Shown here piece by piece: positions 1,555-55,369 of a DNA stretch of 55,779 nucleotides. Position 1 is the first letter of the stretch, and each line of letters begins with the position of its first letter. The position numbers were made by a program, and so were the translations under genes. Under the pieces are notes generated by a model, which saw only the letters and a list, made by a program, of their open reading frames with translations, ran no database searches and was not told the origin of the DNA. This DNA comes from Actinomycetota bacterium (GTDB lineage Bacteria; Actinomycetota; AC-67): NCBI GenBank assembly GCA_005884515.1, contig VAWS01000060.1, forward strand, positions 1-55,779, given 5' to 3'.

Positions 1555-2124
1555 CTACCGGCGACTGCCACTCCGCTCGGACAGCTCGGCCCAGATCATG
1601 TCCCCCCGATCAGTCGCCTGAATGACTCGGTCGCGTTGACGACGACCGGGGCGAGGAACAGGAACAGAGCCGGGGAGCAACTCGATGACGGTGAGGAAGG
1701 AATTCACAACCATGATCCATCCGAATAACAGACCGATGTCACTCTTGAGCTCGGCTCGCCAGATCGCAGCGGAGACGGCAGCAACCACTCCGGTGGCAAG
1801 CGGCCCGGCCAGGGCTACCAGGATCATGTCTCGGCGTGGGTTTTTGAATGCACGAGGGTTGAACGACTGCGGTTTTCCCCAGCCGAACATCATCCCGTAG
1901 GGCCCTGAAAAGATCGCAACGAAGACGAACACGGCGGGCATGATGATCGAGCCCAAAGTGTCGACATGTGGCTTTATCCGTAAAGTGACACGGCCCATCA
2001 GCTTCGGAGTCCGATCTCCAAGAGCCATCGCCGCTCGGGCGTGGGCCCAGTGGTGGACATCGATGCCGATCAGGAAGCCGAGAGCAACACCGGCACCGGC
2101 GATCAGGTTCAAGCTGCCGATCAA
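1555..2124 (-). CDS. peptidase M50 (site-2 protease, COG1994-like) family protein, atypical and possibly disrupted at the 3' end
   Basis: TTG start at 2124, 8 nt after GGGAGGA. Family blocks present: LGDRTPKLMGRVTLRIKPHVDTLG, FGWGKPQSFNP, ALAGPLATG. The zinc motif reads HHWAH rather than HExxH. The LLPxPPLDG block is absent, and a hydrophobic tail is only readable in another frame after ~1675. Confidence 0.6.
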   Translation of the reverse strand: MIGSLNLIAGAGVALGFLIGIDVHHWAHARAAMALGDRTPKLMGRVTLRIKPHVDTLGSIIMPAVFVFVAIFSGPYGMMFGWGKPQSFNPRAFKNPRRDMILVALAGPLATGVVAAVSAAIWRAELKSDIGLLFGWIMVVNSFLTVIELLPGSVPVPRPGRRQRDRVIQATDRGDMIWAELSERSGSRR

Positions 2125-2227
2125 GGGCGGCGTCCTCCCACGTCTAATCCCAGGTTATGACAGCTTGAGGTCGCGGTAAGGTTCCACCTCACGGTGAGAC
2201 TTGAACGTTGCCTGCGCTTCGGGCGGC

Positions 2228-2605
2228 TCAGCGCCGGCGGCCGAGCCGATCGGCGAGGATCGACGCCTGCCCATTCGCATCCAGGTCCGCCAGCGTGTAC
2301 GACAGCGCCTCCCGCACGAGCCGCCCGCGATCCGCGCCGATCCCGAACTCGCGCAAGGCCAGCCGTGCCCGCTCGAGGGCCAGCAGCTCCTCTTGCGTGC
2401 AATAGAACGTGATCTTCTCTTCGTGACGCTGCCGACCGCTGCCCTGTCTGGGGACTTGGAGCCTGCTTTCTTTATCGATAAATCTCTGTGTCGATTGTGG
2501 GCGCGTTTTCGCTGGCTCCGGCGCTGCCGTTTGGTGGCGAGAAGGTATTTGTTGATATGTCGATTGATTGCTCTGTGGATTGGTCTGCTGTTCTTCCTTC
2601 GGCAA
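2228..2605 (-). CDS. small ribbon-helix-helix-like protein downstream of ParA (possible ParG-like partner); start uncertain
   Basis: C-terminal 60 aa EEKITFYCTQEELLALERARLALREFGIGADRGRLVREALSYTLADLDANGQASILADRL has an RHH-like beta-alpha-alpha pattern and genome-typical high GC3. No start codon after the parA stop. The only candidate is TTG at 2605, which overlaps the parA tail. Confidence 0.45.
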   Translation of the reverse strand: MPKEEQQTNPQSNQSTYQQIPSRHQTAAPEPAKTRPQSTQRFIDKESRLQVPRQGSGRQRHEEKITFYCTQEELLALERARLALREFGIGADRGRLVREALSYTLADLDANGQASILADRLGRRR

Positions 2606-3422
2606 GCTCGTTGTCCGGAACAGCTCGTCCGCTCCCGGCAAGCTCGCTCTCTTGATCGTCGACAATGCCCAGCACCTCCCTGGCGAGGGCCCTGTAGGCC
2701 GCCGCCCCCCTTGAATCTCCGGCGTATGAAAGGATCGGCTCCCCGGCGACGGGGGCCTCGGCGAAACGGATCGTCCTCGGGATGGTGGCATTGAAGAGCC
2801 GGGTCCCGAAGGCGTCCTTGACCCGGGCGATGACCTCTCTCGCGTGCAGGGTTCGCCCGTCGTACATGGTTGCGACTACACCTTGAATCTCTAGTTCAGG
2901 GTTAAGGCGGTCGCGAACCTTTTCGATCGTGTCCACCAACAGCGCCATGCCACGCAGAGCGAAGAACTCACACTCGAGCGGGATGATGACGGCGTCGCTC
3001 GCCGTCAAGGCGTTGACGGTCAAGAGCCCCAGAGAAGGCGGGCAATCGATCAAGATGTAGTCGTAGTCCTCCCTCGCCGGCTGTAGCACGCGCTTGAGGG
3101 CTTGCTCGCGCGCGACTTCGCTGACCAGCACCACTTCTGCGGCCGAAAGGTCGATATTTCCGGGGAGAAGGTCGACTCCCATGATGTTCGTCTTGATGAC
3201 CACGTCCTCGAAACGCGTCGATCGATCGAGGATCAGGTTGTAGATCGTTTGATCGAGCTCGATCGAGTTCACGCCGACGCCCACCGACAACGCGCCCTGC
3301 GGGTCGAAGTCCACCAGCAAGACGCGCTGGCCGATCTCCGCAAGAGCTGCACCCAGACTGATCGTTGTGGTGGTCTTGCCGACGCCGCCCTTCTGATTGG
3401 CAAGCGAGATTATCCTGGTCAC
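2472..3422 (-). CDS. ParA/Soj-family partition ATPase with a low-complexity C-terminal tail
   Basis: GTG start. Deviant Walker A NQKGGVGKTTT, plus LVDFDPQG and ILIDCPPSLG. The ~60-aa tail is acidic and Ser/Thr-rich, with lower GC than the surroundings. Confidence 0.9.
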   Translation of the reverse strand: MTRIISLANQKGGVGKTTTTISLGAALAEIGQRVLLVDFDPQGALSVGVGVNSIELDQTIYNLILDRSTRFEDVVIKTNIMGVDLLPGNIDLSAAEVVLVSEVAREQALKRVLQPAREDYDYILIDCPPSLGLLTVNALTASDAVIIPLECEFFALRGMALLVDTIEKVRDRLNPELEIQGVVATMYDGRTLHAREVIARVKDAFGTRLFNATIPRTIRFAEAPVAGEPILSYAGDSRGAAAYRALAREVLGIVDDQESELAGSGRAVPDNELAEGRTADQSTEQSIDISTNTFSPPNGSAGASENAPTIDTEIYR

Positions 3423-7582: not shown

Positions 7583-9147
<1,565 letters not shown>

Positions 9148-12820: not shown

Positions 12821-13675
12821 CTACTCCCCCGGATTCAAGTGGAACTTCTCGCGGACGAGTCTCCAGAAGGGACGCGGCTCGAGTTTCGCCAGACGGATGC
12901 GGTCCTTTCCTGCGCGCAAGCGGACGCGCGCGCCGGGCGCGAGCTTGATCGCCGGCAAGCCGTCCGCCGACAGCGAGGCCGGATCGCGCTCCCCTTCCAG
13001 GGCGAGCTCGACCTCTTCGTCCGGCGGGACGATCACACTGCGTGCGAACAGGCCGTGCGGGGACACCGGTGTGACGACGATGCAATCGATGTGTGGGGAA
13101 ACGACCGGACCGCCGGCAGAGAACGAGTATGCGGTGGAGCCGGTCGGCGTCGCGACGATGACGCCGTCGGCGGCCCACGAGATCAGCCGCTCGCCCCCGA
13201 TCGTTACCCCGAGACGCACGGCTCGCCCCGTCGCAACCTTCGCGACGATCACGTCGTTCAGCGCACGTAACGTCTCGACGCGATCCCCGTGGTCGACCTC
13301 CGCTTCGAGGACGAGGCGCTCTTCAACGATGAAGCCGTTATCGAGCAGCCGCTTCAACCCGTCGTCGAGCTCGGATCGCTCGAGCTCGGAGAGGAACCCA
13401 AGGTGCCCGAAGTTGATCCCGAGCAGCGGGACACCCGATCGCCCGACCGCTTCGGCCGCGCGCAACAACGTGCCGTCGCCGCCGAAGACGATCACGAGGT
13501 CGAGGTCCTCCGGCATCGCCGGCGTTGCGTTGATACCGGGGAGACCGATGCGATCGGCATCGCCGTCGAGCGCCCACACGTCGACACCGCGGCTCAGGAG
13601 CGTTTCGATGAGCGCGCGCGCAGTGGTCACCGCTTGGTCGCGCTCCGCGTGCAGGATGACGCCGGCGCGCTTCAC
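12821..13675 (-). CDS. nadK: NAD+ kinase
   Basis: GTG at 13675 (GTGA overlap with tlyA). Contains GGDGTLLRAA, INFGHLGFL and ATPTGSTAYSFSAGGP. Confidence 0.9.
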   Translation of the reverse strand: MKRAGVILHAERDQAVTTARALIETLLSRGVDVWALDGDADRIGLPGINATPAMPEDLDLVIVFGGDGTLLRAAEAVGRSGVPLLGINFGHLGFLSELERSELDDGLKRLLDNGFIVEERLVLEAEVDHGDRVETLRALNDVIVAKVATGRAVRLGVTIGGERLISWAADGVIVATPTGSTAYSFSAGGPVVSPHIDCIVVTPVSPHGLFARSVIVPPDEEVELALEGERDPASLSADGLPAIKLAPGARVRLRAGKDRIRLAKLEPRPFWRLVREKFHLNPGE

Positions 13676-14304
13676 GGAGCTCGCTCCGCTGCCGCCCGGA
13701 TCACGCGGTCGCCCACATCTACTCCTTCTCGTGCGAAGTGAAGGAAGAACTCGCGGTTTCCCTTCGGTCCGACGAGGGGCGAAGGAACCGCGCCCGACAA
13801 AGCGTATCCGGCGGCGCGATAGGCGCGCGCGACGGCCTCCATCGCATCGATCCACGCGGCCGGATCGCGGACCACACCGCCCTTCGGCACGCTCGCGCGG
13901 GGCAGCTCGAACTGGGGCTTGACCATGAGCACCATGGCCGCCGGACGCAGGCTCACGAACGCGTCCGCGAGGGCCACGAGACCGATGAACGAGAGGTCGG
14001 CCACCAAGATGTCGAGCGGCCCCGTCGTCCCGGCGGTGATCGCACGGACGTTCGTGCGTTCGATCAGTTGAACGCGAGGATCGTTTCGAAGCTCCCACGC
14101 GAGCTGGCCGTACGCGACGTCGACCGCGACCACTTGGCGCGCGCCTCGACGCAGCAGACAGTCGGTGAACCCGCCGGTCGACGCTCCCGCGTCCAGTGCG
14201 CGCGCGCCGTCGACGTCCACGCCGAACGCGTCGAGCGCTGCGTCGAGCTTGTCTCCGCCGCGCGATACGAACCGGCGCGCGCCCGAAGGGTGGGCCGGAC
14301 CCAC
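13672..14304 (-). CDS. tlyA: TlyA-family rRNA 2'-O-methyltransferase lacking the N-terminal S4 domain
   Basis: GTG at 14304. Reads RRFVSRGGDKLDAALDAF...LDAGASTGGFTDCLL...VDVAYGQLAWELRNDPRV...VKPQFE. Only 11 residues precede the FVSRG block, where family members normally have about 55-60 (the S4 domain). Confidence 0.75.
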   Translation of the reverse strand: MGPAHPSGARRFVSRGGDKLDAALDAFGVDVDGARALDAGASTGGFTDCLLRRGARQVVAVDVAYGQLAWELRNDPRVQLIERTNVRAITAGTTGPLDILVADLSFIGLVALADAFVSLRPAAMVLMVKPQFELPRASVPKGGVVRDPAAWIDAMEAVARAYRAAGYALSGAVPSPLVGPKGNREFFLHFAREGVDVGDRVIRAAAERAP

Positions 14305-14308
14305 GAGG

Positions 14309-14458
14309 CTACTCCCGGGGGTCGTGGTCGTTCGCGGGCGAGCCGTCGTCCATGAAGGAACGGAGCCTGCGCTCGACGGCTTCGAGCGCCGTCGCGCGCT
14401 CCTCGAGGGGAGTTTGCTCGAGGTTCTCGACCTCGTCATCGGGTAGGAGAGAGTCCAT
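14309..14458 (-). CDS. small acidic hypothetical protein (49 aa) upstream of tlyA
   Basis: An ATG-to-TAG ORF not in the supplied track (<60 aa): MDSLLPDDEVENLEQTPLEERATALEAVERRLRSFMDDGSPANDHDPRE. High GC3. A small ORF occupies the same position upstream of tlyA in mycobacteria. Confidence 0.4.
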   Translation of the reverse strand: MDSLLPDDEVENLEQTPLEERATALEAVERRLRSFMDDGSPANDHDPRE

Positions 14459-16975: not shown

Positions 16976-18157
16976 GTGGCCGAGATCGCTCCCTTCCGCG
17001 GCACGCGCTACGACCCGAGCGCCGTCGACGACCTTTCGCTGGTCGTTGCGCCGCCCTACGACGTGATCACCGAAGCGGACCGCGACGCGCTCGAAGCAGC
17101 GAGTCCGTACAACGTTGTCAGGCTGATCCTTGGACGCGACGAACCCGGCGACGACGAGCGTTCGAACAAGTATACGAGGGCGCGCGGATTGCTCGAAGCC
17201 TGGCGTGCCGCCGGCGTGCTCCGCGAAGACGCCGGCGAAGCCCTGTACGTCTACGAGCAGCGCTACCGGCTCGGAGATGAGAAACGCTTCCAGCGCGGGG
17301 TGTTGGGGGCCGTGCGCTTGGATGAGCCGGAGGCCGGCGGCGTCCTGCCGCACGAGCGGACCTACGAGAAGATCGTTCAAGACCGCCTGCAGCTGCTGCG
17401 CGCAACCGAAACGAACCTCGACACGATCTTCTGCATCTACGACGGTCAAGAGCAGGGCGCCCACGACGCGATCGAGCGGACCGCCTCGACCCCGCCGGTG
17501 GCGCAGTTCACGACCGAAGACGACGTCGAGCACGTTCTGTGGGCGATGACGGACGTGCTCGACATCGGAGCCGTCGGGCGCGCGCTCGAGAAAGCGCCGG
17601 TGGTCATCGCCGACGGTCACCACCGATGGCAGACCGCACTTCAGTATCGGAACGAGCGCCGCGCTGCAGAGGGACTGGGCCCATGGGACCTTCAGCTGAT
17701 GTTCCTCGTGGACGCGTCTCGGTGGGGGCCATCGCTGCTCCCGATCCATCGCGTGGTCGGCGGCATCGACGCGACGGCCGCGCTCGAAGCGATGGCTCCG
17801 GTGATTCTCGCTGAGCCCGCTCCTGGCGCCTGGTGGCTGACGATCGCCGATCCGGCGGCGGAGCGCGCGGCGCTCCCCGCCGACCGTTCCGCCGCGTGGC
17901 GCGACCTCGACGTATCGGTGTTGCATTCGCTGGTGTTCGACAAGCTGCTCGGCGGGATCAAGCCCCGCTTCGTTCACTCCGCGACCGAAGCTGCGAACGA
18001 AGTGAAGTCGGGGGAAGCGACTCTCGGCTTCCTCCTCGCGCCGATGCCGTTCGACGCCGTCCGCGCCGTTGCGGAAGCCGGCGAAGCGATGCCGCCGAAG
18101 TCGACGTTCTTCGTTCCGAAGCCGGCGACCGGGGTGGTGATGCGCGCGCTCGACTGA
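16976..18157 (+). CDS. DUF1015-family protein
   Basis: MAEIAPFRGTRYDPS...VAPPYDVI...LPHERTYEKIVQDRLQLLRAT...IADGHHRWQTAL is the characteristic DUF1015 motif series. Confidence 0.85.
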   Translation: MAEIAPFRGTRYDPSAVDDLSLVVAPPYDVITEADRDALEAASPYNVVRLILGRDEPGDDERSNKYTRARGLLEAWRAAGVLREDAGEALYVYEQRYRLGDEKRFQRGVLGAVRLDEPEAGGVLPHERTYEKIVQDRLQLLRATETNLDTIFCIYDGQEQGAHDAIERTASTPPVAQFTTEDDVEHVLWAMTDVLDIGAVGRALEKAPVVIADGHHRWQTALQYRNERRAAEGLGPWDLQLMFLVDASRWGPSLLPIHRVVGGIDATAALEAMAPVILAEPAPGAWWLTIADPAAERAALPADRSAAWRDLDVSVLHSLVFDKLLGGIKPRFVHSATEAANEVKSGEATLGFLLAPMPFDAVRAVAEAGEAMPPKSTFFVPKPATGVVMRALD

Positions 18158-20560: not shown

Positions 20561-20692
20561 GAACCAAGGCCTCGGCCTATTAGTACCGGTCGGCTCCACG
20601 TGTTGCCACGCTTCCACCTCCGGCCTATCAACCCGCTAGCCTTGCGGGGGCCTTACCGGATTAACTCCGTGGGAGGCCTCATCTTGGAACGA

Positions 20693-20723
<31 letters not shown>

Positions 20724-20866
20724 TCTTCCGCACATCGCCAACCAGCCGTGCTCTTGGCAGAACAACTGGCACACGAGCGGTGCGTCCGTCCCGGTCCTCT
20801 CGTACTAGGGACAGCCTTCCTCAAGCCTCCTGCGCCCACGGTGGATAGGGACCGAACTGTCTCACG

Positions 20867-21587: not shown

Positions 21588-21654
21588 ACGTTCTAAACCC
21601 AGCTCGCGTACCGCTTTAACCGGCGAACAGCCGGACCCTTGGGAGCTGCTCCAC

Positions 21655-21692
<38 letters not shown>

Positions 21693-22195: not shown

Positions 22196-22228
<33 letters not shown>

Positions 22229-23017
22229 CGTGTGATCCCACTGTTACCAGTGGCACAGACTATGCCTTCATCTCATCTCTTGATGAGAGCCCGCGTGTTG
22301 CCTCAGCCGTAGATTTGCCGAGCGGCATGACTGAGGCCTCTCCCTTTCGGGATCAGTCGTTACGGGGCCATGCCTCTTTGAGGCAGAGGGCTTCCCACGG
22401 CATTACCCGGTGCGATGCACGGAAATCTGTTACCCCCACCTCTTACGAGATGGTGATCCGGTCATTTCTGCCGGACTCCCTATGTCGCCACAGGGTTCGG
22501 ACTATATCTTCAGCTCATCAAGCCGAGCTGCTCGGCGTGCAGTCTCTGAGGGTTCCGCACTACTTCTTCGAGTCGATATCTTCGCTGCTTGCCTCGTTGG
22601 TTCATCGCGAACGCTAACTCCACAATCGTCTGGAAGCCTGCGTCTATGCGATGAGCTTTCCGTTGCATCAACGTTACGATCTCGCGGAATTTCAGGAAGT
22701 CATCCTGCTTCTTTGAGATCAGTGGATATCGATCGAAGAACGGGATGATCACTGACTCCAACTCTTCGCGTCGGTACACCGAGTACGTCATCACGCTGCT
22801 GTTCGGTCCTTTGGCACGGATGTGCCCGTGGCCGAAGAAGTCGCGGATGGCCTCGAGTATCCCGACGTTGTCCCGATGCTGATATGCCTGAAAGCTTGGT
22901 GCGATCAGCCATCGGTTTCCGTATCGGACTGTCATCCACATATGACATCTTCGGTACCGCGAGATACACGGGACTTCCCAGCAAATAGCCGAGTTTTGTA
23001 ACGGCCTCTAAAGGTTG
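22229..23017 (-). mobile_element. composite insertion replacing 23S nt 1924-1951: an L1923-type group I intron (with ORF) plus an L1951-type ORF-less group I intron core
   Basis: The 5' exon ends ...GTAACTATAACGGU, and the IGS GCCGUU 12 nt into the insert can pair with AACGGU. The 3' exon resumes AAGTTCCGACCTGCACGAATGG after a G. Two R-P8-S sets are present: TCAGAGACTGCACG / GCCGAGCAGCTCGGC / AAGATATAGTCC, and CTGAGGCAACACGCGGG / CTCATCAAGAGATGAG / GAAGGCATAGTCTGTGCC. Confidence 0.78.
22510..22941 (-). pseudogene. LAGLIDADG-type (I-CeuI-like) homing endonuclease remnant lacking the LAGLIDADG motif region
   Basis: FQAYQHRDNVGILEAIRDFFGHGHIRAKGPNSS...LESVIIPFFDRYPLISKKQDDFLKFREIVTLMQRKAH...AFAMNQRG matches the post-motif part of LAGLIDADG_1-type enzymes. 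Upstream in-frame sequence back to the TAG at ~23009 has no LAGLIDADG helix. Confidence 0.6.
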
Positions 23018-23962: not shown

Positions 23963-23999
<37 letters not shown>

Positions 24000-26823: not shown

Positions 26824-28719
26824 ATGAGGAAAGAACGACTTCCCCGGAACCCGCGACGCCTTGTTTTCGTCGTCCTCCTGTTGGCCCTTCCCGCGCTGGC
26901 CGCCTGCAGCTCGCTTCCGAACATCGACAAGCTGCTCGCCAACGCGCAGAGCCAAGCACAGACGACGTTCGTCTACGACAACCAGGGCCACCTGATCACG
27001 ACGCTCCACGCAGAGCAGGACCGCCAAGTCGTGCCGTTGAACGACGTCCCGCTCCAAGTCCGGCAGGCCGTCATCGCGATCGAAGACGCGCGCTTCTACG
27101 ACCACCCGGGGGTCGACTACCGAAGCGTCTTGCGCGCGTTCGGTGCGAATGCGCGCGCCGGCCACATCGTCGAGGGCGGCTCGACGATCACGCAGCAGCT
27201 GGTCAAGAACACCTTGGTCGGGACCCAGCGCACGTTCAAGCGCAAGGTGCAAGAGGCGATCCTCGCGATACAGCTGGAGCAGAAGCTCACGAAGAATCAG
27301 ATCCTGCTGACCCAAGGCGCGCTGCTCGCGGGGATGATCGCGTCCCCGTCGGCGTACGACCCGGAGGCGAATCCGAAGGCGGCGCTCGGCCGCAGGAACT
27401 TCGTGCTGAAGCGGATGGTCGACGAGCACCTGATCAACCTCGCGCAGGACGCCGCGGTGCGGAAGCAGCCACTGGGATTGCACCCGCAAGCCGAGTTTGC
27501 TCCCTATCGCGACCCCTACTTCATCGACTACGTGAAGCAGGTCATCTTCGACGGCGACCAAGAGTTCAAGGCGTTGGGCGCGACGCGGACGGATCGCATC
27601 AACGCCGTTTTCAAGGGTGGGTTGCGGATCTACACGACGATCGATCAGCACCTGCAGGACGTCGCCGAGCAGATCAGCAAGAAGACGCTGCCGTATAAGA
27701 GCGATCCGTACACCGCGTTCGTGGGCCTTGATCCCAACACCGGGAACATCCTTTCGATGGTCGGCGGCCGCAACTACTTCAATCCGAAGGATCCGTACGC
27801 GAAGCTCAACCTCGCGACGCAAGCGGAACGTCAGCCGGGGTCCGCGTTCAAGCCGTTCACGCTCGCGGCGGCGCTCGAGCGCGGGATCTCGCTGAGCAGC
27901 ATCTGGCGCGGTGGCTCGCGTGTCTTCCTCCGTCTGCCGGACGGCGAGACCTGGAACCCCGGTAACTACGAGGGGATCAACTTCGGGAGCAGCCTGTCGC
28001 TGCTCCAGGCCACGGCCGACAGCATCAACGTCGTATACGCGCAGGTTGCGTTGAAGATAGGACCGGATGCCATCGTGGAGATGGCACACCGGCTCGGCAT
28101 CAAGTCGCCGCTGCCGTCGGTTTACTCGATCACGCTCGGCACCGGTGGTGTGAATCCGCTCGAGATGGCCGGCGCCTACTCGACGTTCGCGAACGGCGGC
28201 TACCGCGTCGACCCGGCTCCTATCAGCAAGATCACGGACGCGACCGGCAAGGTTCTCTACCAGCACAAGGTCGTCAAGAAGCGCGTCCTCAGCCCGGCGG
28301 TGGCTGCTCTCGTCGACAAGGCCTTGCAAGCCGTCATGACCGAAGGCACCGGTGTTCACATCCAGCTCGGCAGGCCGGCCGGCGGGAAGACAGGCACGTC
28401 GGAGGAGTATCACGACGCGTGGTTCGCCGGCTTCACACCTCAGCTGGTCGGCGTTCGATGGGTGGGGTTCCCGAAGGCGGAGCTCCCGATGCGGCCGCCG
28501 CGGACGCGCATCACCGTGTTCGGCTCGTCCTGGCCGGGGCACATGTGGCAGTCGTGGATGCTCGAAGCGTTGAAGGGCGTGCCGGCCGTTCCGTTCCCCA
28601 CGGCCGACGAGGCGTACGTCAAGGTTCGCGTGGACACGCTACGGAACTGCTTGCCGAATGAGTTCACGCCGCCATACCTATCGCGCGCGACACGATGGCG
28701 AAAGCCGGGTTCAACGTGA
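26824..28719 (+). CDS. class A penicillin-binding protein (GT51 transglycosylase + transpeptidase), with a hole in the GT51 domain
   Basis: ATG at 26824, then a signal/anchor with a lipobox-like LAACS. GT51 motifs EDARFYDHPG, GGSTITQQLVKN, RKVQEA and RRNFVL are present. The KxxILxxYLN...YFG segment is missing at ~27304-27309. Transpeptidase motifs SAFKPF, SIN and KTGT are present. Confidence 0.85.
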   Translation: MRKERLPRNPRRLVFVVLLLALPALAACSSLPNIDKLLANAQSQAQTTFVYDNQGHLITTLHAEQDRQVVPLNDVPLQVRQAVIAIEDARFYDHPGVDYRSVLRAFGANARAGHIVEGGSTITQQLVKNTLVGTQRTFKRKVQEAILAIQLEQKLTKNQILLTQGALLAGMIASPSAYDPEANPKAALGRRNFVLKRMVDEHLINLAQDAAVRKQPLGLHPQAEFAPYRDPYFIDYVKQVIFDGDQEFKALGATRTDRINAVFKGGLRIYTTIDQHLQDVAEQISKKTLPYKSDPYTAFVGLDPNTGNILSMVGGRNYFNPKDPYAKLNLATQAERQPGSAFKPFTLAAALERGISLSSIWRGGSRVFLRLPDGETWNPGNYEGINFGSSLSLLQATADSINVVYAQVALKIGPDAIVEMAHRLGIKSPLPSVYSITLGTGGVNPLEMAGAYSTFANGGYRVDPAPISKITDATGKVLYQHKVVKKRVLSPAVAALVDKALQAVMTEGTGVHIQLGRPAGGKTGTSEEYHDAWFAGFTPQLVGVRWVGFPKAELPMRPPRTRITVFGSSWPGHMWQSWMLEALKGVPAVPFPTADEAYVKVRVDTLRNCLPNEFTPPYLSRATRWRKPGST

Positions 28720-29681: not shown

Positions 29682-31265
29682 TCACGCGTGCTTCCTCTTG
29701 CGCGCGACGAACTCTTGAAGCTGTTTCAGCGCTCGCGTGTTGAGGACGTCCGCCTTGGTCGCCCACCCGCGCTGCGCCGTAGCGATCCCGAACCGGATGT
29801 TGTCCATGTGCTTGGGCGCGTGCGCGTCGGTGTCGACCGACAGCGTCACGCCGGCTTCGACCGCCCAGCGCACGTGATCGTCACGCAGATCCAAGCGGTC
29901 GGGGAAGGAGTTCACCTCCAACGCCGTCCCCGTTCGGATCGCAGCCGCGCAGACGGCGCCGAAGTCCATGTCGATCGGCGGGCGCCGGCCGATCATCCGG
30001 CCGCTCGGATGACCGATCACGTTCACGAGCGGGTTCTCGATCGCTGCGATGAGCCGCGCGGTCTGCTCCTCGGCGGAAAGGCGGAAGTAGCTGTGGACGG
30101 ACGCGACGAGGACGTCGAAGCCGGCGAGGAACTCGGGGTCATAGTCGACGGTGCCGTCCTTCGCAATGTTCAGCTCGCACCCATGCAGGATCGTCATCTT
30201 CGGGTAGCGCTTCTGCAACGTCTTCAACTTCTTGCGTTGCTCGAGCACTGCGTCGCGCGTCATGTCGACCGGCGTGGGCAACGTTCCGGCCAGTGCTGCT
30301 TCGACCTCGCCGCGGTCTTCGCGCATCGTCGGAGGTATCCAGGGCAGTCCCAGCGCCTCGTAGACCTCTTCCTCGGTCCGCGCGGCGATGATCGAGCCAT
30401 CCTTCGCGTGGAACAGCCCGTACTCCGAAAGCTTCAATCCCTTCTTCACGGCTATCTCGCGCACCTTGATGTTGTGCGCCTTGGAACCGGTGAAGTAGAC
30501 GAGCGCCGCGCCCCACGCCTCATAAGGCACGACGCGGAGATCAACTTGCAGCCCTTGCCGCGTGACGATCGTGGTCTTGGTCGCGCCCTTCGCTTTCACC
30601 TCCCGCACGCGAGCCATCGACGCGAATGCGTCCATGATCGGCTCCGCCTCCGACGCCGCGACCAGGATGTCGATGTCGCCGATCGTCTCGCGCATCCGGC
30701 GCAATGAGCCCGCGTAAGCGATCTCGTCGAAGGTGCACGTCTCGCTCAGCGTCGCGATGATCCGGTCGGCGGCTTGGAGCGCCTGGTCGACCATGATTCG
30801 TTCTTCTTGCGCCGTGTAGTTCCGGATCCCGCGCAGGAGGCTTTCTTCGGTCTTCGCGCCCAGCCCTTTGATGTCTCGCAGCTTGTTCGCTTCCGCAGCG
30901 GCAGCCAGCTCGGCGAGGTTCGTTACCCCAAGCTGCTCGTAAACGAGGATCGCCTTCTTCGGACCGAGACCAGGGATGCGGAGCAGCTCCCGCATCCCGG
31001 CGGGAACCATCTCCCGCAGGTCTTCCAGCTCGTGCATCGTGCCGGTGTCGAGGTATTCGCGGATCCGGCCGAGCATGTTCTTCCCGACGTTCGGGATCGC
31101 GAGGATGCCCTTGTCGTCGAGCTCGCGGAGATCCTTCGAGTAGCCGCCGATCGAGCGCGCCGCTTTCTCGTACGCCCGCACGCGATACGGGTCCCTGCCG
31201 GTTATCTGCTGGAGCTCGGCCCATTCGCCGAGCAGCTCTTCAACTTCCTCGTTCGTCTTCGGCAT
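29682..31265 (-). CDS. polX: DNA polymerase X family protein with a truncated PHP domain
   Basis: The PolX core has HhH motifs (IPNVGKNM, IPGLGPKK, IKGLGAKT) and GSLRRMRETIGDIDILV. The PHP part starts at ...LPTPVDM|TRDAVLEQRKKL. The GDLHxHTxxSDG...ITDHS blocks (~47 aa) are absent. Later PHP motifs are present (ASVHS, GHPSGR, DTDAH). Confidence 0.87.
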   Translation of the reverse strand: MPKTNEEVEELLGEWAELQQITGRDPYRVRAYEKAARSIGGYSKDLRELDDKGILAIPNVGKNMLGRIREYLDTGTMHELEDLREMVPAGMRELLRIPGLGPKKAILVYEQLGVTNLAELAAAAEANKLRDIKGLGAKTEESLLRGIRNYTAQEERIMVDQALQAADRIIATLSETCTFDEIAYAGSLRRMRETIGDIDILVAASEAEPIMDAFASMARVREVKAKGATKTTIVTRQGLQVDLRVVPYEAWGAALVYFTGSKAHNIKVREIAVKKGLKLSEYGLFHAKDGSIIAARTEEEVYEALGLPWIPPTMREDRGEVEAALAGTLPTPVDMTRDAVLEQRKKLKTLQKRYPKMTILHGCELNIAKDGTVDYDPEFLAGFDVLVASVHSYFRLSAEEQTARLIAAIENPLVNVIGHPSGRMIGRRPPIDMDFGAVCAAAIRTGTALEVNSFPDRLDLRDDHVRWAVEAGVTLSVDTDAHAPKHMDNIRFGIATAQRGWATKADVLNTRALKQLQEFVARKRKHA

Positions 31266-31295: not shown

Positions 31296-32555
31296 CTAGC
31301 CGAGCGCGTCCCGGATCTGCTTCAACGAGGCGTCGAGGTGAGAGAGCTGGGCGTCTACGGAGGACGCCGAAGGGCCCGGGGCGTTTCGCGTGTCCGTTTC
31401 GTGCGCGTCTCTGAACGGTACACCGGTGGTCACGAGGTGCTCGGCGATATCCGTCGCGAGCAGCATGTCGTCGCCGGCCGCGCGCGCCATGGCATCGGTA
31501 TCGAACCGCATCGTGCGCACGGCGCCTGCCAACGCGGGGATCATCGTCAGCATCGTGGCGACACCGTCGAAGAGCGGCTCCTTGTCCTCCTGCAGGTCAC
31601 GGTTGTACGCGAGCGGCAATCCCTTCAGCGTGGCGAGGAGCCCGGTCAGGTTGCCGATCAGACGTCCGGCCTTGCCGCGCGCAAGCTCGGCGACGTCGGG
31701 GTTCTTCTTCTGCGGCATCAGGCTGGAACCGGTGGCGTACGCGTCCGACAGCTCGGCGAAGCCGAACTCCGCCGTCGTCCACAGCACGATCTCTTCGCCA
31801 AGGCGCGAGGCATGCACCCCTGCGATGGCGAGCGCGGCGCAGAACTCGGCGACGAAGTCGCGGTCGGAGACGGCGTCTATGGAGTTGGAAGCCACGAAAC
31901 CGAAACCGAGGTCGTGCGCCGAACGATGGGCGTCCAGCTCGAGGGTCGATCCGGCCAAAGCTCCGGCACCGAGCGGCGACACGTCGGTCCGGCCGAGCGC
32001 GTCTAACATCCGGCGCACGTCTCGCTCGAACGCGAACGCGTGCGCCAGCAGGTGGTGCGCGAGGCTGACGGGTTGGGCGCGCTGCAGGTGCGTGTACCCG
32101 GGCATCAACGCGTCGGGGTGCTCGCGTGCCCGCTCCATCAGCGCGTCGATCAGATCGCACGCCGACAAGGCCACCGATCGCCCGTGCCGGACCAGCCACA
32201 GCCGCAGCGCGGAGACGACTCGGTCGTTGCGGGACAGGCCTGCTCGAACCTTGGGGCCGGCATCGGGGACGCGCTCGAGCAGCGCACGCTCGACCGCCGT
32301 GTGGATGTCTTCATCTCCCGGGTCGAACGGGAAAGCGCCGGAGGCGATGTCCCTCGCGATGCCTTCCAAGGCGGTGAGGACGGTATCGGCCTCGGCATCG
32401 GTGATGAGGCCGGCGCGGGACAGGGCGCGGGAATGTGCTGCAAGCACCGCGCAGTCCTCGTTCGCGAGCAGCCGGTCGAACGACAGGCTTTCGGTGAACG
32501 CGAGCAGCTCGGGCGCCGGCTCGTCACCGAAACGGCCGCCCCAGAGCTTCGTCAC
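31296..32555 (-). CDS. argH: argininosuccinate lyase with a short C-terminal domain
   Basis: GTG at 32555 (GTGA overlap with argG). Contains LWGGRF, GLSRNDRV, MPGYTHLQRAQP and GSSLMPQKKNPD. After PFRDAHE about 46 residues of the C-terminal helical domain are missing before ...RNAPGPSASSVDAQL. Confidence 0.87.
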   Translation of the reverse strand: MTKLWGGRFGDEPAPELLAFTESLSFDRLLANEDCAVLAAHSRALSRAGLITDAEADTVLTALEGIARDIASGAFPFDPGDEDIHTAVERALLERVPDAGPKVRAGLSRNDRVVSALRLWLVRHGRSVALSACDLIDALMERAREHPDALMPGYTHLQRAQPVSLAHHLLAHAFAFERDVRRMLDALGRTDVSPLGAGALAGSTLELDAHRSAHDLGFGFVASNSIDAVSDRDFVAEFCAALAIAGVHASRLGEEIVLWTTAEFGFAELSDAYATGSSLMPQKKNPDVAELARGKAGRLIGNLTGLLATLKGLPLAYNRDLQEDKEPLFDGVATMLTMIPALAGAVRTMRFDTDAMARAAGDDMLLATDIAEHLVTTGVPFRDAHETDTRNAPGPSASSVDAQLSHLDASLKQIRDALG

Positions 32556-35903: not shown

Positions 35904-37105
35904 GACGCGTCACCGTACTCGGAAAGGATGCCTGTCAGGATCTCGACGGCCTGCTCGATCTGATCGTCTGAGACGATCAGCGGGGGCGCCAGGCGCACCG
36001 CGTTCGGCGCCACGTTGTTGACCACCAATCCCTTCGCAAGGGCTTTGACCACGATCTCCGCAGCCCAGTCTCCGCCAAGCTCGATCGCGATCAGCAATCC
36101 GAGGCCGCGGATCTCGCGGACGGCCCCGTTCCCTTCGGTTGCCGCGGACAGCCTGCCGATTAGCTTCTCGCCCGCTTCGGCCGCGCGCGCGACCAGTCCT
36201 TCGCTTTCGATAACGTCGAGCACCGCATTCGCGGCCGCACAGGGCACGGGCCCGCCGCCGAACGTGGTCGCGTGGTCGCCCGGCTTGAACGCGTCCGCCA
36301 CGTCCTCGCGCGCGATGCACGCACCGATGGGCAGTCCCCCGCCGAGCGCCTTCGCGAGCGTGACGATGTCCGGCGCGATGTCGTAGTGCTGGAACGCGAA
36401 CCATTTCCCCGTCCGGCCGAGCCCCGTCTGCACCTCATCGAAGATGAGCGCGGCGCTGCGCTCTTCGCAGAACTTGCGAGCAGCCTGCAGATACTCGGGC
36501 GTCGCGAGCCGCACCCCACCTTCCCCTTGAACGACTTCGAGCATCACGGCGGTCGTGTCGTCGCCGACCGCTTGGTCGAGAGCCTCTTCGTCGTTGAGGG
36601 AGACGTACGTGAACCATGCCGGGAGCGGCGCGAACGGCTCGTGTTTGTGGGGCTGTCCCGTCGCAGCGAGCGTTGTGAACGTGCGGCCGTGGAAGGAACC
36701 CAGCGCAACGACGACGCCGGAACGATCGGCCGCGCCGCGCGCGCGCGCCCATCGCCTGGCGAGCTTCAGTGCGCACTCGTTAGCCTCTGCACCGGAGTTG
36801 GAGAAGAAGACCTTTCCCCACCCCAGAAGGTCGTGCAGCCGCTCGGCCAGGATCGCCTGCGGCTCGGTGTAGAAGAGGTTGGAGACGTGCGTGAGCGTAC
36901 CGGCCTGCTCGCGGATCGCTTCGACGACCTTGGGGTGCGAATGTCCGACGCTCATCACTGCGATGCCGGCCAGGAAGTCGAGGTATTGCTTGCCCTCGGT
37001 GTCCCACAGCAGCGCGCCTTCGCCTCGGACGAAGGCCACGGGCAGCCGCCCGTACACGTTCATGTGGTACCGGGAGTCGAGCGCCCTGATCTGCTCGAGG
37101 TTCAT
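35900..37105 (-). CDS. argD: acetylornithine aminotransferase
   Basis: 401 aa, class III aminotransferase. Contains SGAEANE, DEVQTGLGRTG and TLAKALGGGLP (PLP Lys). Confidence 0.92.
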   Translation of the reverse strand: MNLEQIRALDSRYHMNVYGRLPVAFVRGEGALLWDTEGKQYLDFLAGIAVMSVGHSHPKVVEAIREQAGTLTHVSNLFYTEPQAILAERLHDLLGWGKVFFSNSGAEANECALKLARRWARARGAADRSGVVVALGSFHGRTFTTLAATGQPHKHEPFAPLPAWFTYVSLNDEEALDQAVGDDTTAVMLEVVQGEGGVRLATPEYLQAARKFCEERSAALIFDEVQTGLGRTGKWFAFQHYDIAPDIVTLAKALGGGLPIGACIAREDVADAFKPGDHATTFGGGPVPCAAANAVLDVIESEGLVARAAEAGEKLIGRLSAATEGNGAVREIRGLGLLIAIELGGDWAAEIVVKALAKGLVVNNVAPNAVRLAPPLIVSDDQIEQAVEILTGILSEYGDAS

Positions 37106-37914: not shown

Positions 37915-39025
37915 GAGGATGCGAGACTTCGCCGCGCTTCATCCCGATCCGAACTTCGACGTCACGGTCGAGGAGGGCCGCGCGCGCCTTCGCAGCGTCG
38001 CCGGGACCCGGCGCGCCGTTCTGGCACAGGAGCTGACCGCCGAGCCAGACGTCTACCACGTTGGGATCGAACGGGATCCCCGACGTTCCGAGCGCGGCGA
38101 GCACACGGCCCCAGTTCGGGTCGGCCCCGTTCAGCGCGCACCGCAGAAGGACGGAATCGGCGACGGTCCCAGCCGCGCGCCGCGCCTCGCGCACGTTCGT
38201 TGCACCCTCAACGACGATCGACACGACCTTCGTCGCGCCTTCGCCGTCCTCGACGATCTGCCTCGCCAGCGATGCACACACCTCGCCCAATGCATCCTTG
38301 AATGCGCCCGCTTGGGGGTGTTCGGCGCCGATCGGGTCGCCTCCGGCTGCGCCGTTCGCAAGCACGAGCAGCGTGTCGTTCGTCGAACGGCACCCATCGA
38401 CGCTGATCGCGTTGAACGAATCCGCGGTCGTTTCGCGCAGGGTCTCCACGAGGAACCCGTGTTCGACCGGCGCGTCGGTCACGACAAACGCCAGCAGCGT
38501 CGCCATCTCGGGCGCGATCATCCCTGCGCCTTTCGCGAACCCGGCGATGATCGCGGACCCAAGTACGGCCTCGGCGATCTTCGGGCGCGTGTCCGTCGTC
38601 ATGATCGAAGCAGCGAAGTCTCCGGCGCCGTCGGACGAGAGCGCTTTGGTCGCCGCTTCGATCCCCTCGCGTACCTTCGTCATATCGAGCGGCACCCCGA
38701 TGATGCCCGTGGAGTTCACGAGCACGTTCTCCTTCTTGATCGCCAGGCCGCGCGCGGCGTGCTCGGCCATCGAACGTGCATCGGCGTACCCCTGCTTCCC
38801 GGTGCACGCGTTCGCATTCCCTGCGTTGACCACGATCGCTCGCGCTTTGCTGCGCCGGATATGGCGCCGCGTCAGCTGCACCGGAGCGGCTTGGACGCGG
38901 TTCGTGGTGAAGACCCCTGCCGCGGTCGCCGGCCGATCGGAAACGATCATCCCGAGATCCGGGTTCCCGCTCGGCTTCAAGCCGCACGCGACGCCGGACG
39001 CGCTGAAGCCTTCCGGAAGCTTCAC
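37667..39025 (-). CDS. argJ: glutamate N-acetyltransferase / amino-acid acetyltransferase ArgJ with an aberrant 3' end
   Basis: GTG at 39025 (GTGA overlap with argC). Contains NANACTG, the autoprocessing site MATLLAFVVTD, and ISVDGCRSTND. After ...DVEVRIGMKRGE the conserved C-terminal ~20 aa are missing. The frame then runs 250 nt into argB with no stop. Confidence 0.8.
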   Translation of the reverse strand: MKLPEGFSASGVACGLKPSGNPDLGMIVSDRPATAAGVFTTNRVQAAPVQLTRRHIRRSKARAIVVNAGNANACTGKQGYADARSMAEHAARGLAIKKENVLVNSTGIIGVPLDMTKVREGIEAATKALSSDGAGDFAASIMTTDTRPKIAEAVLGSAIIAGFAKGAGMIAPEMATLLAFVVTDAPVEHGFLVETLRETTADSFNAISVDGCRSTNDTLLVLANGAAGGDPIGAEHPQAGAFKDALGEVCASLARQIVEDGEGATKVVSIVVEGATNVREARRAAGTVADSVLLRCALNGADPNWGRVLAALGTSGIPFDPNVVDVWLGGQLLCQNGAPGPGDAAKARAALLDRDVEVRIGMKRGEVSHPHGGASVHQALLRAHGCREVRRGGDGRSSAGGVVRERHRPDAVRRHEPSGCARWWAASDRAYREARRQSNLRRRIPGNDGGGP

Positions 39026-47160: not shown

Positions 47161-47508
47161 TCAGAGGGGTCCGGCGTCCTCGGCCGGCTTTTCGAGCCGG
47201 CGCATCAGCGCTGCCATCTCGATGGCGGTGGCCGCCGCGTCCCAGCCTTTGTTGCCCTCAACCCCACCGGCGCGCGCGCCCAGAGCCACGACGGCGTCGA
47301 CCCCCCGCGTCTCTGCGATCGCGCGCGCGGCAAGCGGCAACTCGAACGATCCCGGCACCCACTCGACGGGGACATCGGAAGCGCCGCTGGCGGTGAAGCA
47401 TTCGAGGGCCCCTTCCACCAGGAGCTCGGTCACCTCGTGGTTGAAGCGCGAAGCCACGATGGCGAACCGCAAACCGCGCGCGTCGAGCGGCTGGTCAGGG
47501 GGCTTCAT
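47161..47508 (-). CDS. ribH: 6,7-dimethyl-8-ribityllumazine synthase with a central gap
   Basis: [22 protein letters not shown]...[14 protein letters not shown]...VDAVVALGA|[21 protein letters not shown]. The VIRGxTxHFDYV...GVLT...EQA segment (~46 aa) is absent at ~47272-47277. ATG at 47508 preferred over TTG at 47538. Confidence 0.75.
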
Positions 47509-53287: not shown

Positions 53288-53291
53288 AACG

Positions 53292-53825
53292 TCAGAGCCT
53301 CTTGGAGGCGTTCGTGCGCGGCGGTGGCGACATCCCGAAGTCTTGATCGCGCAGTGCCTTCATGGCTTCTTTCCGAAGCTCGGGTGCGAGGCGATCGATG
53401 AACAGGATGCCGTCGAGGTGATCGATCTCGTGCTGGAAGATGCGCGCGAGGAACCCTTCCGCTTCCTTCTCGATCGGAGCACCGGCAAGGTCTTGCGCGC
53501 GCACCTTCACCGCGGTCGCGCGCGTCACGGGATAATACGTGCCGGGCAGCGACAGGCAGCCCTCTTCCGCTTCTTCGGTTTCCTCCGATGCCCACACGAT
53601 CTGCGGATTCACCAGCGTGCCGCGCTCACCTTCATCGCCGGAGTCGTACACGAACAGCCGGAGGAGCCGACCGACCTGCGTCGCGGCGAGTCCGACACCA
53701 ACGTCATGCATCGTCTCGTGCATGTCCAACGCCAGCTGAGCCAGATCGTCGTCGAACGCCGTGACCGGCGTGGCTTTCGATCGCAGGATGGGATCGCCCA
53801 GCGTGCGGATCGTCAGGATCGCCAC
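53292..53825 (-). CDS. def: peptide deformylase
   Basis: 177 aa from GTG at 53825 (13-nt overlap with the priA 3' end). Contains GVGLAATQVG, EGCLSLPG and QHEIDHLDG. Confidence 0.9.
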   Translation of the reverse strand: MAILTIRTLGDPILRSKATPVTAFDDDLAQLALDMHETMHDVGVGLAATQVGRLLRLFVYDSGDEGERGTLVNPQIVWASEETEEAEEGCLSLPGTYYPVTRATAVKVRAQDLAGAPIEKEAEGFLARIFQHEIDHLDGILFIDRLAPELRKEAMKALRDQDFGMSPPPRTNASKRL

Positions 53826-55369
53826 TTCGGTACGAACACCTCCCACGGGCCTGCGGCTGCGACGTCTCTCGCCACCTCGATCGCTCGGTCGGCGGGAACG
53901 TCGATCCTCGCCAGCGCGGCGAACGGAGGATAGCCGAGTTCCCTGCGGCGCGCGGCCTCCGCGCGATAGAGAACGTCTGGATCCCACTTCGTGAGCGCCA
54001 GTATCGCGGGGTGTGAGGCGTTCGCGGTCTCGACGAAGATGCGCGCGTCTGCCGTCCACCTCGCGGCTCGCCACCAGGTCGCGAACGTGTCTTCGTGCGC
54101 CCGGTACTCCGGTTGCGAAAGCGCAGCATCGACGTCGAGTAGCCCGAGCAGGCCCACGCGCTCGACGGCGAGATCTTTCGCGATGAACGGTGTCGCGCAG
54201 ATGAGATCTGCGCTTCGCGCCGCGCGCGCGACGTCTGCAGGGGTGCTCGACGAATCGAGCTGCATTGGCTTCGACGGCGCGAGGATGCGCACCGCGCGCG
54301 CGGCGATGGACCCGGCATGCGAGCCGCCCCGGTGGGTGACGAGGACGACGCGTCGCCGGGCGGCAAGCGATTCCTTCGCTGCTTGCAGCGTCGGGGCCGA
54401 CGGCACGAGCGTCCCTTGCTCGATCACCGTTACCGATGAGCGATGCTTCCGTTCTTCGGGTCTCGGAGGGCCGACGAGCACGTAAGGTCCGCGCTCCGTG
54501 GCGGCGCGCGCTTCCACCGACGGTGGCACGCCGACGAGCACGAGCGTTGCGCCGGTGCGACGCGCGCGCTCCGCCGCGACCGCGCGCGCGTGATATCGCG
54601 GCGCGCGACCTTCCTTGTACGACTGGTGACCCTCGTCATCGATGACGATGAGACGGAGATCGCGCATAGGCGCGAACACCGCTGCGCGGCCCCCGACCGC
54701 GATTCGTTTCGCGCCCGCTTGTATGGCCAGCCAGTCTCGGTACCGCTCGCGCGCGCTGCGATGACTCCCCAACTCCCCCAGAGACTCGGCGAACGCGTCG
54801 CGGAGAGCCGTCAATACGGCGCTGCGAACGCGAACCTCCGGCAGCAACACGAGGACGCCGCCGCGTTTCGCAGCCTCGCCGGCCATCGAGACGATCGCAC
54901 GCGCCCGGTCCTCTTCCGCGAGTGGCCGCCACACGAACCCCCCGCCGCCCCGTTGCAGTGCGCGCGCAAGCGCGGAGCCTCGCGAGTAGGTGCCGAAGTC
55001 GAATGAACCGGTGTGATGGGGGCGGCCACTCTCGACGACCGAGTCTTCCTCGCCCGCGACGCGCTGAGGCAGGACCGTCGCAAGCGCCTCACCCAGCGTC
55101 GACAAGTACCGCCCGGCGACCCAGCGGGCGAGGTCCACCGTCTCGTCGTCGAGGCCCGGACCCACGATCGCGGCGAGCGGCAAGGGTCGCTCGATATCCG
55201 CTCGTTCGAGCAGCCCCGTCACGACGCCGACCCGCCGTTTCCGACGGAAGGGCGCGCGCACTGCGGAACCGACGTGCACGGCCATCCCGTCGGGGATCGC
55301 GTAGGTGAAGACGCGGTCGAGGTGCGTTAGCGCGGTTTCGACCAGAACGACCGAGCAGAACCGGCTCAC
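53813..55369 (-). CDS. priA: primosomal protein N' (PriA), short actinobacterial-type variant
   Basis: 518 aa with a GTG start. N-terminal 3'-DNA-binding domain pattern (VDRVFTYAIPDG...VRAPFRRKRRVGVV), DExH box VIDDEGHQSYK, and C-terminal ELGYPPF. No Walker A GxGKT and no Cys-rich zinc region. Confidence 0.8.
   Translation of the reverse strand: MSRFCSVVLVETALTHLDRVFTYAIPDGMAVHVGSAVRAPFRRKRRVGVVTGLLERADIERPLPLAAIVGPGLDDETVDLARWVAGRYLSTLGEALATVLPQRVAGEEDSVVESGRPHHTGSFDFGTYSRGSALARALQRGGGGFVWRPLAEEDRARAIVSMAGEAAKRGGVLVLLPEVRVRSAVLTALRDAFAESLGELGSHRSARERYRDWLAIQAGAKRIAVGGRAAVFAPMRDLRLIVIDDEGHQSYKEGRAPRYHARAVAAERARRTGATLVLVGVPPSVEARAATERGPYVLVGPPRPEERKHRSSVTVIEQGTLVPSAPTLQAAKESLAARRRVVLVTHRGGSHAGSIAARAVRILAPSKPMQLDSSSTPADVARAARSADLICATPFIAKDLAVERVGLLGLLDVDAALSQPEYRAHEDTFATWWRAARWTADARIFVETANASHPAILALTKWDPDVLYRAEAARRRELGYPPFAALARIDVPADRAIEVARDVAAAGPWEVFVPKWRS

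What the first reader, a model, noticed from the sequence alone, without database searches (positions are those of the whole stretch)
1665..54325. Window-wide pattern: 30-48-codon holes or frameshifts in otherwise well-conserved core genes
At least nine loci lose a contiguous, normally invariant block while the flanking sequence stays highly conserved.
- M50 protease, ~1665-1680
- pyrG, 8728-8731
- tlyA N-terminus, ~14304
- 23S mini-exon, ~22400-22450
- PBP GT51 domain, ~27304-27309
- polX PHP domain, ~30258-30264
- argH, ~31395-31400
- argJ/argB junction, ~37915-37935
- ribH, ~47272-47277
- possibly priA, ~54305-54325

Several gaps are about 46-47 codons. Some are in frame and some are not. 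Simultaneous loss of catalytic cores from CTP synthase, lumazine synthase and 23S rRNA is hard to reconcile with a free-living cell. My leading explanation is scaffold gaps or N-runs that were closed or stripped, or another assembly artefact. The alternative is genuine multi-gene decay, meaning a redundant or degenerating replicon, which would be biologically remarkable.
Basis: partly seen in the sequence, partly recalled or inferred. Interest (0 to 1): 0.7.

Follow-up and report, generated by a model that had tools for sequence, protein, structure and literature searches.

The report
Collapsed scaffold gaps, not gene decay
The "holes" in core genes are real in this sequence, but they are twelve places where a metagenome scaffold was stitched together with 81-147 bases left out; other assemblies of the same soil bacterium carry every gene intact, so this is an assembly artefact.

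Summary
The pattern is real. The window is a 66% GC contig from an uncultured soil Actinomycetota. It lacks twelve blocks of 81-147 nt (1368 nt in total) that are present in every one of 2-13 independent metagenome contigs that are 99-100% identical to it.

M50-like, pyrG, 23S mini-exon, PBP GT51, polX PHP, argH, argJ/argB, ribH.
- **tlyA is not a hole.** The lineage's protein natively lacks the S4 domain.
- **priA has a hole, but at 53848.**
- **Three holes were missed:** 17824, 22932 and 28679.

The evidence points to scaffold joins rather than biology:
- There are no other indels anywhere in the window.
- Microhomology at the junctions is 0-2 nt.
- The holes show no preference for staying in frame.
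- One hole removes a universally conserved 28-nt 23S exon.
- Hole edges coincide exactly with contig ends in other assemblies (8730 and 53848).
- Both ends of the window match such contig ends too (position 1 exactly, the other within 5 nt).
- One inter-hole segment comes from a visibly different strain.

Multi-gene decay is not. Interest is low except as a quality warning.

The parts
1671..1672 (.). Join 1: 101 nt missing from the M50-like (site-2 protease family) gene on the minus strand. It causes a frameshift. Relatives encode 209 aa.
   Evidence: L091, L092, L094-L097 all carry the 101 nt
8730..8731 (.). Join 2: 121 nt missing from pyrG. CTP_synth_N profile positions 125-168 are lost and the frame shifts. 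Relatives encode 548 aa.
   Evidence: contigs L093 and L094 end exactly at 8730
17824..17825 (.). The window encodes 393 aa against 420 aa in relatives.
22422..22424 (.). Join 4: 93 nt missing from the 23S rRNA gene. The loss covers the last base of intron 1, the whole 28-nt mini-exon (E. coli 1924-1951) and the first 64 nt of intron 2.
   Evidence: L114, L116
22932..22934 (.). Join 5, not reported: 142 nt missing from the homing-endonuclease ORF of 23S intron 1. The LAGLIDADG motif itself is removed.
27305..27306 (.). Join 6: 96 nt missing from the glycosyltransferase (GT51) domain of the class A PBP. Transgly profile positions 108-141 are lost.
28679..28680 (.). Join 7, not reported: 109 nt missing from the C-terminal part of the same PBP gene. 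It causes a frameshift. Relatives encode 815 aa with a PASTA domain.
30264..30265 (.). Join 8: 147 nt missing from the PHP domain of polX. The window encodes 527 aa against 576 aa in relatives.
31393..31395 (.). Join 9: 108 nt missing from the argH C-terminal domain (ASL_C2 profile positions 25-69). Relatives encode 455 aa.
37928..37931 (.). Join 10: 88 nt missing. The loss removes the argJ 3' end (ArgJ profile positions 354-377) and the argB 5' end. Relatives encode ArgJ of 389 aa and ArgB of 281 aa.
   Evidence: 13 relatives carry the piece
47277..47278 (.). Join 11: 138 nt missing from ribH (DMRL_synthase profile positions 68-113). Relatives encode 165 aa.
53848..53849 (.). Join 12: 144 nt (48 codons) missing near the 3' end of the priA-like gene. 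The window encodes 518 aa against 566 aa in relatives.
   Evidence: contig L102 ends exactly at 53848

Best explanation
The window is a scaffold built from short-read soil-metagenome contigs. It consists of thirteen pieces of 0.5-9.3 kb laid head to tail.

At each of the twelve joins, the real sequence between two neighbouring contigs (81-147 nt) is absent, and nothing marks the gap. Either the N-runs were removed, or the gap was closed at zero length. The organism itself has intact genes.

**Shown:**
- The missing pieces exist in all other assemblies.
- The holes are the only indels in the window.
- Hole edges and window ends fall on natural contig termini.
- Strain composition changes at the joins.

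**Inferred:**
- Which software step dropped the sequence.
- The reason for the 81-147 nt range. My suggestion is that these gaps are too long for a single ~150-nt read to bridge, but short enough to be spanned by the unsequenced middle of a paired-end fragment.
For: 1. **Intact relatives.** Independent contigs from at least 15 ENA and JGI soil metagenome assemblies are 99.1-100% identical to the window. They carry all twelve missing blocks and full-length genes: PyrG 548 aa, RibH 165, ArgH 455, PolX 576, PBP 815, ArgJ 389, ArgB 281, PriA-like 566.
2. **No other indels.** Apart from the twelve holes, the best relatives align with zero gaps over window 1-55774.
3. **Junction anatomy.**
   - Microhomology is 0-2 nt.
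   - GC of the missing pieces is 0.54-0.70, which is the local average.
   - 7 of 12 sizes are multiples of 3, P=0.07.
4. **Coincidence with contig ends.**
   - True contig ends of other assemblies fall exactly on hole edges: L093 and L094 at 8730, L102 at 53848.
   - 0.02 such coincidences are expected by chance; P is about 2e-4 for two independent ones.
   - Window position 1 is also the end of L093 and L094.
   - L119 starts 5 nt from the window's other end.
5. **Strain mosaic.**
   - Segment 30265-31392, which lies between two holes, has 13-15 mismatches per kb to all four relatives.
   - Neighbouring segments have 1-5 per kb.
6. **Similar defects in neighbouring public assemblies.**
   - N-runs of 10-216 N stand in for up to about 237 nt in the ENA scaffolds; one 45-N run instead sits between contig ends that overlap by 38 nt.
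   - L103 has an unmarked 46-nt deletion that shares its right edge with the window's ribH hole.
   - L007 has an unmarked 116-nt hole in argH.
7. **Holed proteins not on record.** The holed PolX, DUF1015 and PriA proteins are absent from the collection of 153 billion gene positions. Exact look-ups of five intact proteins of the window found 1 to more than 20 contigs each; a sixth intact-looking ORF, the 349-aa PheS-like ORF, was also not found.
8. **Literature.** N gaps at scaffold joins and unsupported local assembly errors are described for IDBA-UD and metaSPAdes MAGs (PMC7111523).
Against: - The source record, its N-runs or AGP file, and the reads could not be examined. The decisive step is therefore inferred.
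- Hole sizes are bounded and flat (81-147 nt). They fit a uniform 80-150 distribution (KS p=0.83) and do not fit an exponential one (p=0.002). Simple random coverage gaps would not give this.
- The missing pieces are not more strain-variable among relatives than their flanks: 6.5 against 13 variable sites per kb. Strain bubbles inside the holes are therefore not the general cause.
- On the plus strand, the base before the hole is T at 7 of 12 joins. This is a post-hoc observation with P about 0.001 and has no explanation.
Confidence: 0.93

Rival explanations
1. The sequence was damaged after assembly in a way unrelated to contig joins. For example, random 80-150 nt pieces were excised by accident or on purpose, or masked stretches were removed during data handling.
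For: - Hole sizes fit a uniform 80-150 nt distribution.
- Junctions have no microhomology, and the lost pieces are ordinary sequence.
- Flanks are identical to relatives right up to most junctions.
Against: - Random excision would not place hole edges exactly on the contig termini of other assemblies at 8730 and 53848 (P about 2e-4).
- It would not share an edge with L103's own deletion.
- It would not explain the strain switch confined to the segment between holes 8 and 9.
Confidence: 0.05
2. The deletions are real. The DNA comes from a degenerating or dead lineage, or from a redundant replicon, that has lost pieces of many core genes.
For: - The deletions are clean.
- The holed sequence is a coherent 55.8-kb colinear locus.
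- Other public records of related bacteria also show isolated holes (L007; L103).
Against: - Twelve lesions have accumulated, yet there is not one small indel.
- Nucleotide divergence from intact relatives is only 0-1%, which is far too little time for decay.
- The lesions hit an invariant 23S exon, pyrG, ribH, argH and a PBP together.
- There are no deletions under 81 nt and no frame preference.
- None of the holes appears in any of the near-identical contigs examined here (34 aligned, plus L119). Three holed proteins are not on record.
- Hole edges sit at assembly-graph break points.
Confidence: 0.02

Closest known systems
Scaffold-join gaps and local assembly errors in metagenome-assembled genomes (Chen et al. 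2020, Genome Res., PMC7111523)
   Same: - Short stretches between neighbouring contigs are absent.
- The result is truncated or frameshifted gene calls in an otherwise accurate sequence.
- The defects occur at points where assemblers stop, and they are common in IDBA-UD and metaSPAdes scaffolds from soil.
   Different: - Here no N-run marks the joins, so the defect is invisible without comparison.
- The lost lengths fall in a narrow 81-147 nt band.
Reductive genome decay with pseudogenes (for example Mycobacterium leprae; comparison from general knowledge)
   Same: Many core genes appear truncated or frameshifted within one locus.
   Different: - Decay gives a mixed spectrum of lesions: point nonsense mutations, 1-10 nt indels and large deletions.
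- It comes with elevated divergence, and related genomes share the lesions.
- Here the only lesions are 81-147 nt deletions, on a background 99-100% identical to intact relatives.

Membership tests
Collapsed scaffold join (assembly artefact) | The missing sequence is present in independent assemblies of the same population. | tested here: met
   All 12 blocks are present in 2-13 contigs at 99-100% identity.
Collapsed scaffold join (assembly artefact) | Junctions lie at positions where assemblies of this population terminate contigs. | tested here: met
   L093 and L094 end at 8730 and L102 ends at 53848. The window's ends match the ends of L093 and L094 exactly and the end of L119 within 5 nt. 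This was shown exactly at 2 of the 12 joins.
Collapsed scaffold join (assembly artefact) | Pieces on either side of a join can derive from different strain mixtures. | tested here: met
   Segment 30265-31392 has 13-15 mismatches per kb. Its neighbours have 1-5 per kb against the same relatives.
Collapsed scaffold join (assembly artefact) | The source record has an N-run, an AGP gap or a break in read support at each junction. | not testable with these tools
   The source contig is not in the searchable collections. No contig of 50 kb or more carries ArgD, and reads are not available.
Genome decay / pseudogenisation | A mixed lesion spectrum that includes small indels and nonsense mutations. 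| tested here: not met
   There are zero other gaps against the best relatives over 55.7 kb. All lesions are 81-147 nt.
Genome decay / pseudogenisation | The lesions are shared by related genomes, or the affected genes show raised divergence. | tested here: not met
   No relative shares any of the holes. Flanks are 99-100% identical to relatives.
Site-specific or repeat-mediated excision | Direct repeats or a conserved motif at both edges of each deleted piece. | tested here: not met
   Microhomology is 0-2 nt and there is no shared edge motif. The only signal is a weak, one-sided T bias.

The most novel reading that the evidence does not exclude
The twelve deletions exist in a real DNA molecule in the soil. 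It would be a recently crippled lineage or relic DNA in which some process removes ~80-150 nt blocks without leaving repeats.
Probability: 0.02. Interest if true: 0.8.

Novelty: not a real feature. Interest (0 to 1): 0.1.

Why it matters
The value here is as a quality warning.

- **Silent defects in a public-type sequence.** It carries twelve unmarked gaps, about one per 4.6 kb. They turn essential genes (pyrG, ribH, argH, argJ/argB, a PBP, polX, priA-like, 23S rRNA) into apparent pseudogenes.
- **Consequences if taken at face value.**
  - It would suggest genome decay.
  - It would distort metabolic reconstruction.
  - It would seed protein databases with truncated or internally deleted sequences.
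- **A practical test.** Near-identical contigs from other assemblies can both detect and repair such defects without access to reads.
- **The problem is not unique to this record.** Two neighbouring public records, L007 and L103, have similar unmarked holes.

Tried and rejected
- **GC-bias coverage dropouts.** Rejected: GC of the missing pieces is 0.54-0.70, the same as their surroundings.
- **Deletion between repeats, or spurious overlap merging.** Rejected: microhomology is 0-2 nt.
- **Holes sitting on strain-variable bubbles.** Not supported in general: the missing pieces have 6.5 variable sites per kb among relatives, against 13 per kb in the flanks.
- **N-runs in the window.** There are none.
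- **tlyA S4-domain deletion.** Rejected: four colinear relatives carry a native 210-aa FtsJ-only protein.
- **priA Cys-rich-region deletion at 54305-54325.** Rejected: the sequence there is identical in the intact 566-aa relatives.
- **Exact look-ups of holed PolX, DUF1015 and PriA.** Nothing found. This is weak negative evidence, because a single SNP would also prevent a match. The look-up of a 349-aa PheS-like ORF also failed, probably because of the start-codon choice or a strain difference.
- **MAFFT alignment to E. coli 23S.** It misplaced the 3' exon. BLAST and relatives resolved this.
- **Finding the source record.** Not possible: the single genome-contig scan returned only other species.
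Full report
**What the window is.** It is 55,779 nt, 64-69% GC outside the rRNA region, and contains no N. Gene order and content are actinobacterial:
- scpB-scpA-parA
- xerD-ald-pyrG
- the recN/ppnK/tlyA neighbourhood
- 5S-23S rRNA
- tyrS, a PBP, polX
- argHGRF-argDBJC
- pheTS, rplT-rpmI-infC
- hisG-ribH-ribBA-ribE-ribD
- rpe-fmt-def-priA-metK

The closest species representatives in GTDB are uncultured soil Actinomycetota MAGs, with PolX 87-92% identical.

**Checking the observation by eye and by profile.**

I split each protein at the suspected hole and scanned the two halves against Pfam to find the missing profile positions:

| Protein | Pfam family | Positions missing |
|---|---|---|
| RibH | DMRL_synthase | 68-113 |
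| PBP | Transgly | 108-141 |
| PyrG | CTP_synth_N | 125-168 |
| ArgJ | ArgJ | 354-377 |
| ArgH | ASL_C2 | 25-69 |

The PHP domain of PolX is no longer detectable.

**Comparison with the same organism assembled elsewhere.**

Exact-sequence look-ups of intact proteins of the window returned contigs as follows:

| Protein | Contigs |
|---|---|
| ArgD | 23 |
| XerD | 22 |
| HisG | 20 |
| rhomboid | 4 |
| Fmt | 1 |

Further contigs came from a relative's intact PriA and from an intron DNA pattern. All are from independent ENA and JGI soil metagenome assemblies.

These contigs are 99.1-100% identical to the window and together cover positions 1-55774. Against them the window has exactly twelve deletions and no other indel. 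Positions (last base before the hole) and sizes are:

| Position | Size (nt) |
|---|---|
| 1671 | 101 |
| 8730 | 121 |
| 17824 | 81 |
| 22422/3 | 93 |
| 22932/3 | 142 |
| 27305 | 96 |
| 28679 | 109 |
| 30264 | 147 |
| 31393/4 | 108 |
| 37928-30 | 88 |
| 47277 | 138 |
| 53848 | 144 |

In the relatives the genes are full length: PyrG 548 aa, RibH 165, ArgH 455, PolX 576, PBP 815, ArgJ 389, ArgB 281, DUF1015 420, PriA-like 566 and M50-like 209.

- **Eight loci are correct to within a few bases:** M50, pyrG, 23S, PBP GT51, polX, argH, argJ/argB and ribH.
- **The tlyA claim fails.**
  - Four relatives are colinear with the window across 14304.
  - Their TlyA-like protein is natively 210 aa with only an FtsJ domain. 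The window's copy matches FtsJ over profile positions 1-180 of 181.
- **The priA claim is misplaced.**
  - The stretch at 54305-54325 is identical in the intact 566-aa relatives. These are a PriA-like family with only the PF17764 domain.
  - The gene does have a 48-codon hole, but it lies at 53848.
- **Three holes were missed:** the DUF1015 gene (17824), the intron endonuclease ORF (22932) and the PBP C-terminal region (28679).

**The 23S case.**
- BLAST against E. coli 23S and the relatives L114 and L116 show that the native gene has three insertions, at E. coli positions 1923/4, 1951 and 2593.
- The hole at 22423 removes three things: the last base of intron 1, the whole 28-nt mini-exon CCUAAGGUAGCGAAAUUCCUUGUCGGGU, and the first 64 nt of intron 2.
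- A ribosome without that segment is not credible. This statement rests on general knowledge of 23S conservation.

**Why this is an artefact and not biology.**
1. **Lesion spectrum.**
   - There are twelve lesions of 81-147 nt and not one small indel.
   - The background is 0-1% diverged from intact relatives.
2. **No selection signature.**
   - 7 of 12 sizes are multiples of 3 (P=0.07).
   - Microhomology is 0-2 nt.
   - The lost pieces have average GC and are not unusually variable.
3. **Coincidence with contig ends.**
   - Hole edges fall on natural assembly break points. Contigs L093 and L094 end exactly at 8730, and L102 ends exactly at 53848. At 53848 another strain (L100) diverges into an integrase gene.
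   - 0.02 exact coincidences are expected by chance.
   - The window's own ends match contig ends in other assemblies, exactly at position 1 and within 5 nt at the other end.
4. **Strain mosaic.**
   - The 1.1-kb piece between the polX and argH holes has 13-15 mismatches per kb to all four relatives.
   - Its neighbours have 1-5 per kb. This is what independently assembled contigs would show.
5. **The same kind of defect is visible nearby.**
   - ENA scaffolds carry N-runs of 10-216 N standing in for up to about 237 nt. One 45-N run instead sits between contig ends that overlap by 38 nt.
   - L103 has an unmarked 46-nt deletion sharing its right edge with the window's ribH hole.
   - The GTDB MAG contig L007 has its own unmarked 116-nt hole in argH.
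6. **Holed proteins absent from the record.** The holed PolX, DUF1015 and PriA proteins are not on record anywhere.

Chen et al. 2020 describe exactly these classes of error in MAG scaffolds (PMC7111523).

**Mechanism.**
- **Shown:** the window behaves as thirteen contigs of 0.5-9.3 kb, joined with the inter-contig sequence omitted.
- **Inferred:** the omission arose in one of two ways. Either N-runs at scaffold joins were stripped, or a scaffolder or gap closer set the gaps to zero.
- **Size band.**
  - The 81-147 nt band fits a uniform 80-150 distribution (KS p=0.83) and does not fit an exponential one (p=0.002).
  - My suggestion is that these gaps are too long for one ~150-nt read to bridge, but short enough for the unsequenced middle of a paired-end fragment to span. 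This was not tested.
- **One-sided T bias.** At 7 of 12 joins the base before the hole is T. This remains unexplained.

**Rivals.**
- **Random post-assembly excision.** This would explain the flat size distribution, but not the coincidence with contig termini or the strain switch (probability about 0.05).
- **Genuine multi-gene decay.** This is contradicted on every test applied (probability about 0.02).

**Verdict.**
- The feature is an assembly artefact of low intrinsic interest, useful as a warning.
- The native triple-intron 23S gene is the more interesting biology in the window.

Noticed in passing
window 20572-25145 (minus strand); intact copies L116:3380-4300 and L114: The native 23S rRNA gene carries three insertions, at E. 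coli positions 1923/4, 1951 and 2593. Intron 1 is a group I intron (Rfam RF00028, 39 bits, E 9e-8; its P1 helix pairs with the exon) and has a LAGLIDADG_1 ORF. A 28-nt mini-exon separates it from intron 2. The third insertion is 721 nt (20867-21587) and also has a LAGLIDADG_1 ORF (20898-21689). A full-text search found no paper combining these terms for Actinobacteria. Rfam's gathering-threshold hit ends at 21552, so it misses the 3' exon (20572-20866).
   Followed up: partly
L118:946-976 compared with window 22228-22423: A related strain, 91-96% identical in intron 1, has intron 1 but lacks intron 2. The L1951 intron is therefore polymorphic in this group.
   Followed up: no
L007:1368-1373 (VAYV01000336.1) compared with window 31509-31628: A different public MAG contig of a related species has its own unmarked 116-nt hole in argH, which causes a frameshift. 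It contains no N. This suggests that silent gap collapse recurs in public soil MAGs.
   Followed up: partly
L103:2380-2470 compared with window 47277/47278: An ENA scaffold from BioSample SAMN08902861 has a 46-nt deletion in ribH with no N. Its right edge is identical to the right edge of the window's 138-nt hole.
   Followed up: partly
window 13672-14310 (minus strand): The TlyA-like methyltransferase of this lineage natively lacks the N-terminal S4 RNA-binding domain. It is 210 aa in four relatives and has only an FtsJ domain.
   Followed up: yes
window 53813-55369 (minus strand); P0001: The lineage's PriA homologue is a 566-aa protein with only the PriA 3'-DNA-binding domain (PF17764). It has no helicase or Cys-rich zinc region. 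This form is conserved in about 90 relatives of 560-600 aa.
   Followed up: partly
L100:1-562, abutting window 53848: In one strain the sequence upstream of the last 12 codons of priA is replaced by a tyrosine-recombinase (integrase-like) gene on the opposite strand. This may be a mobile element inserted at the priA 3' end, or a chimeric contig.
   Followed up: no
window ~35130-35910 (L081:11203-11978): The arginine operon has a cytochrome c gene (PF13442/PF00034) and a response-regulator gene inserted between argD and argF.
   Followed up: no
window ~2040-2060 (minus strand): The M50-like protein reads HHWAH where the family's HExxH zinc motif would be expected. Its Pfam match is weak in the window (18.6 bits) and is marked faint in the relatives. 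It may be a non-catalytic paralogue.
   Followed up: no
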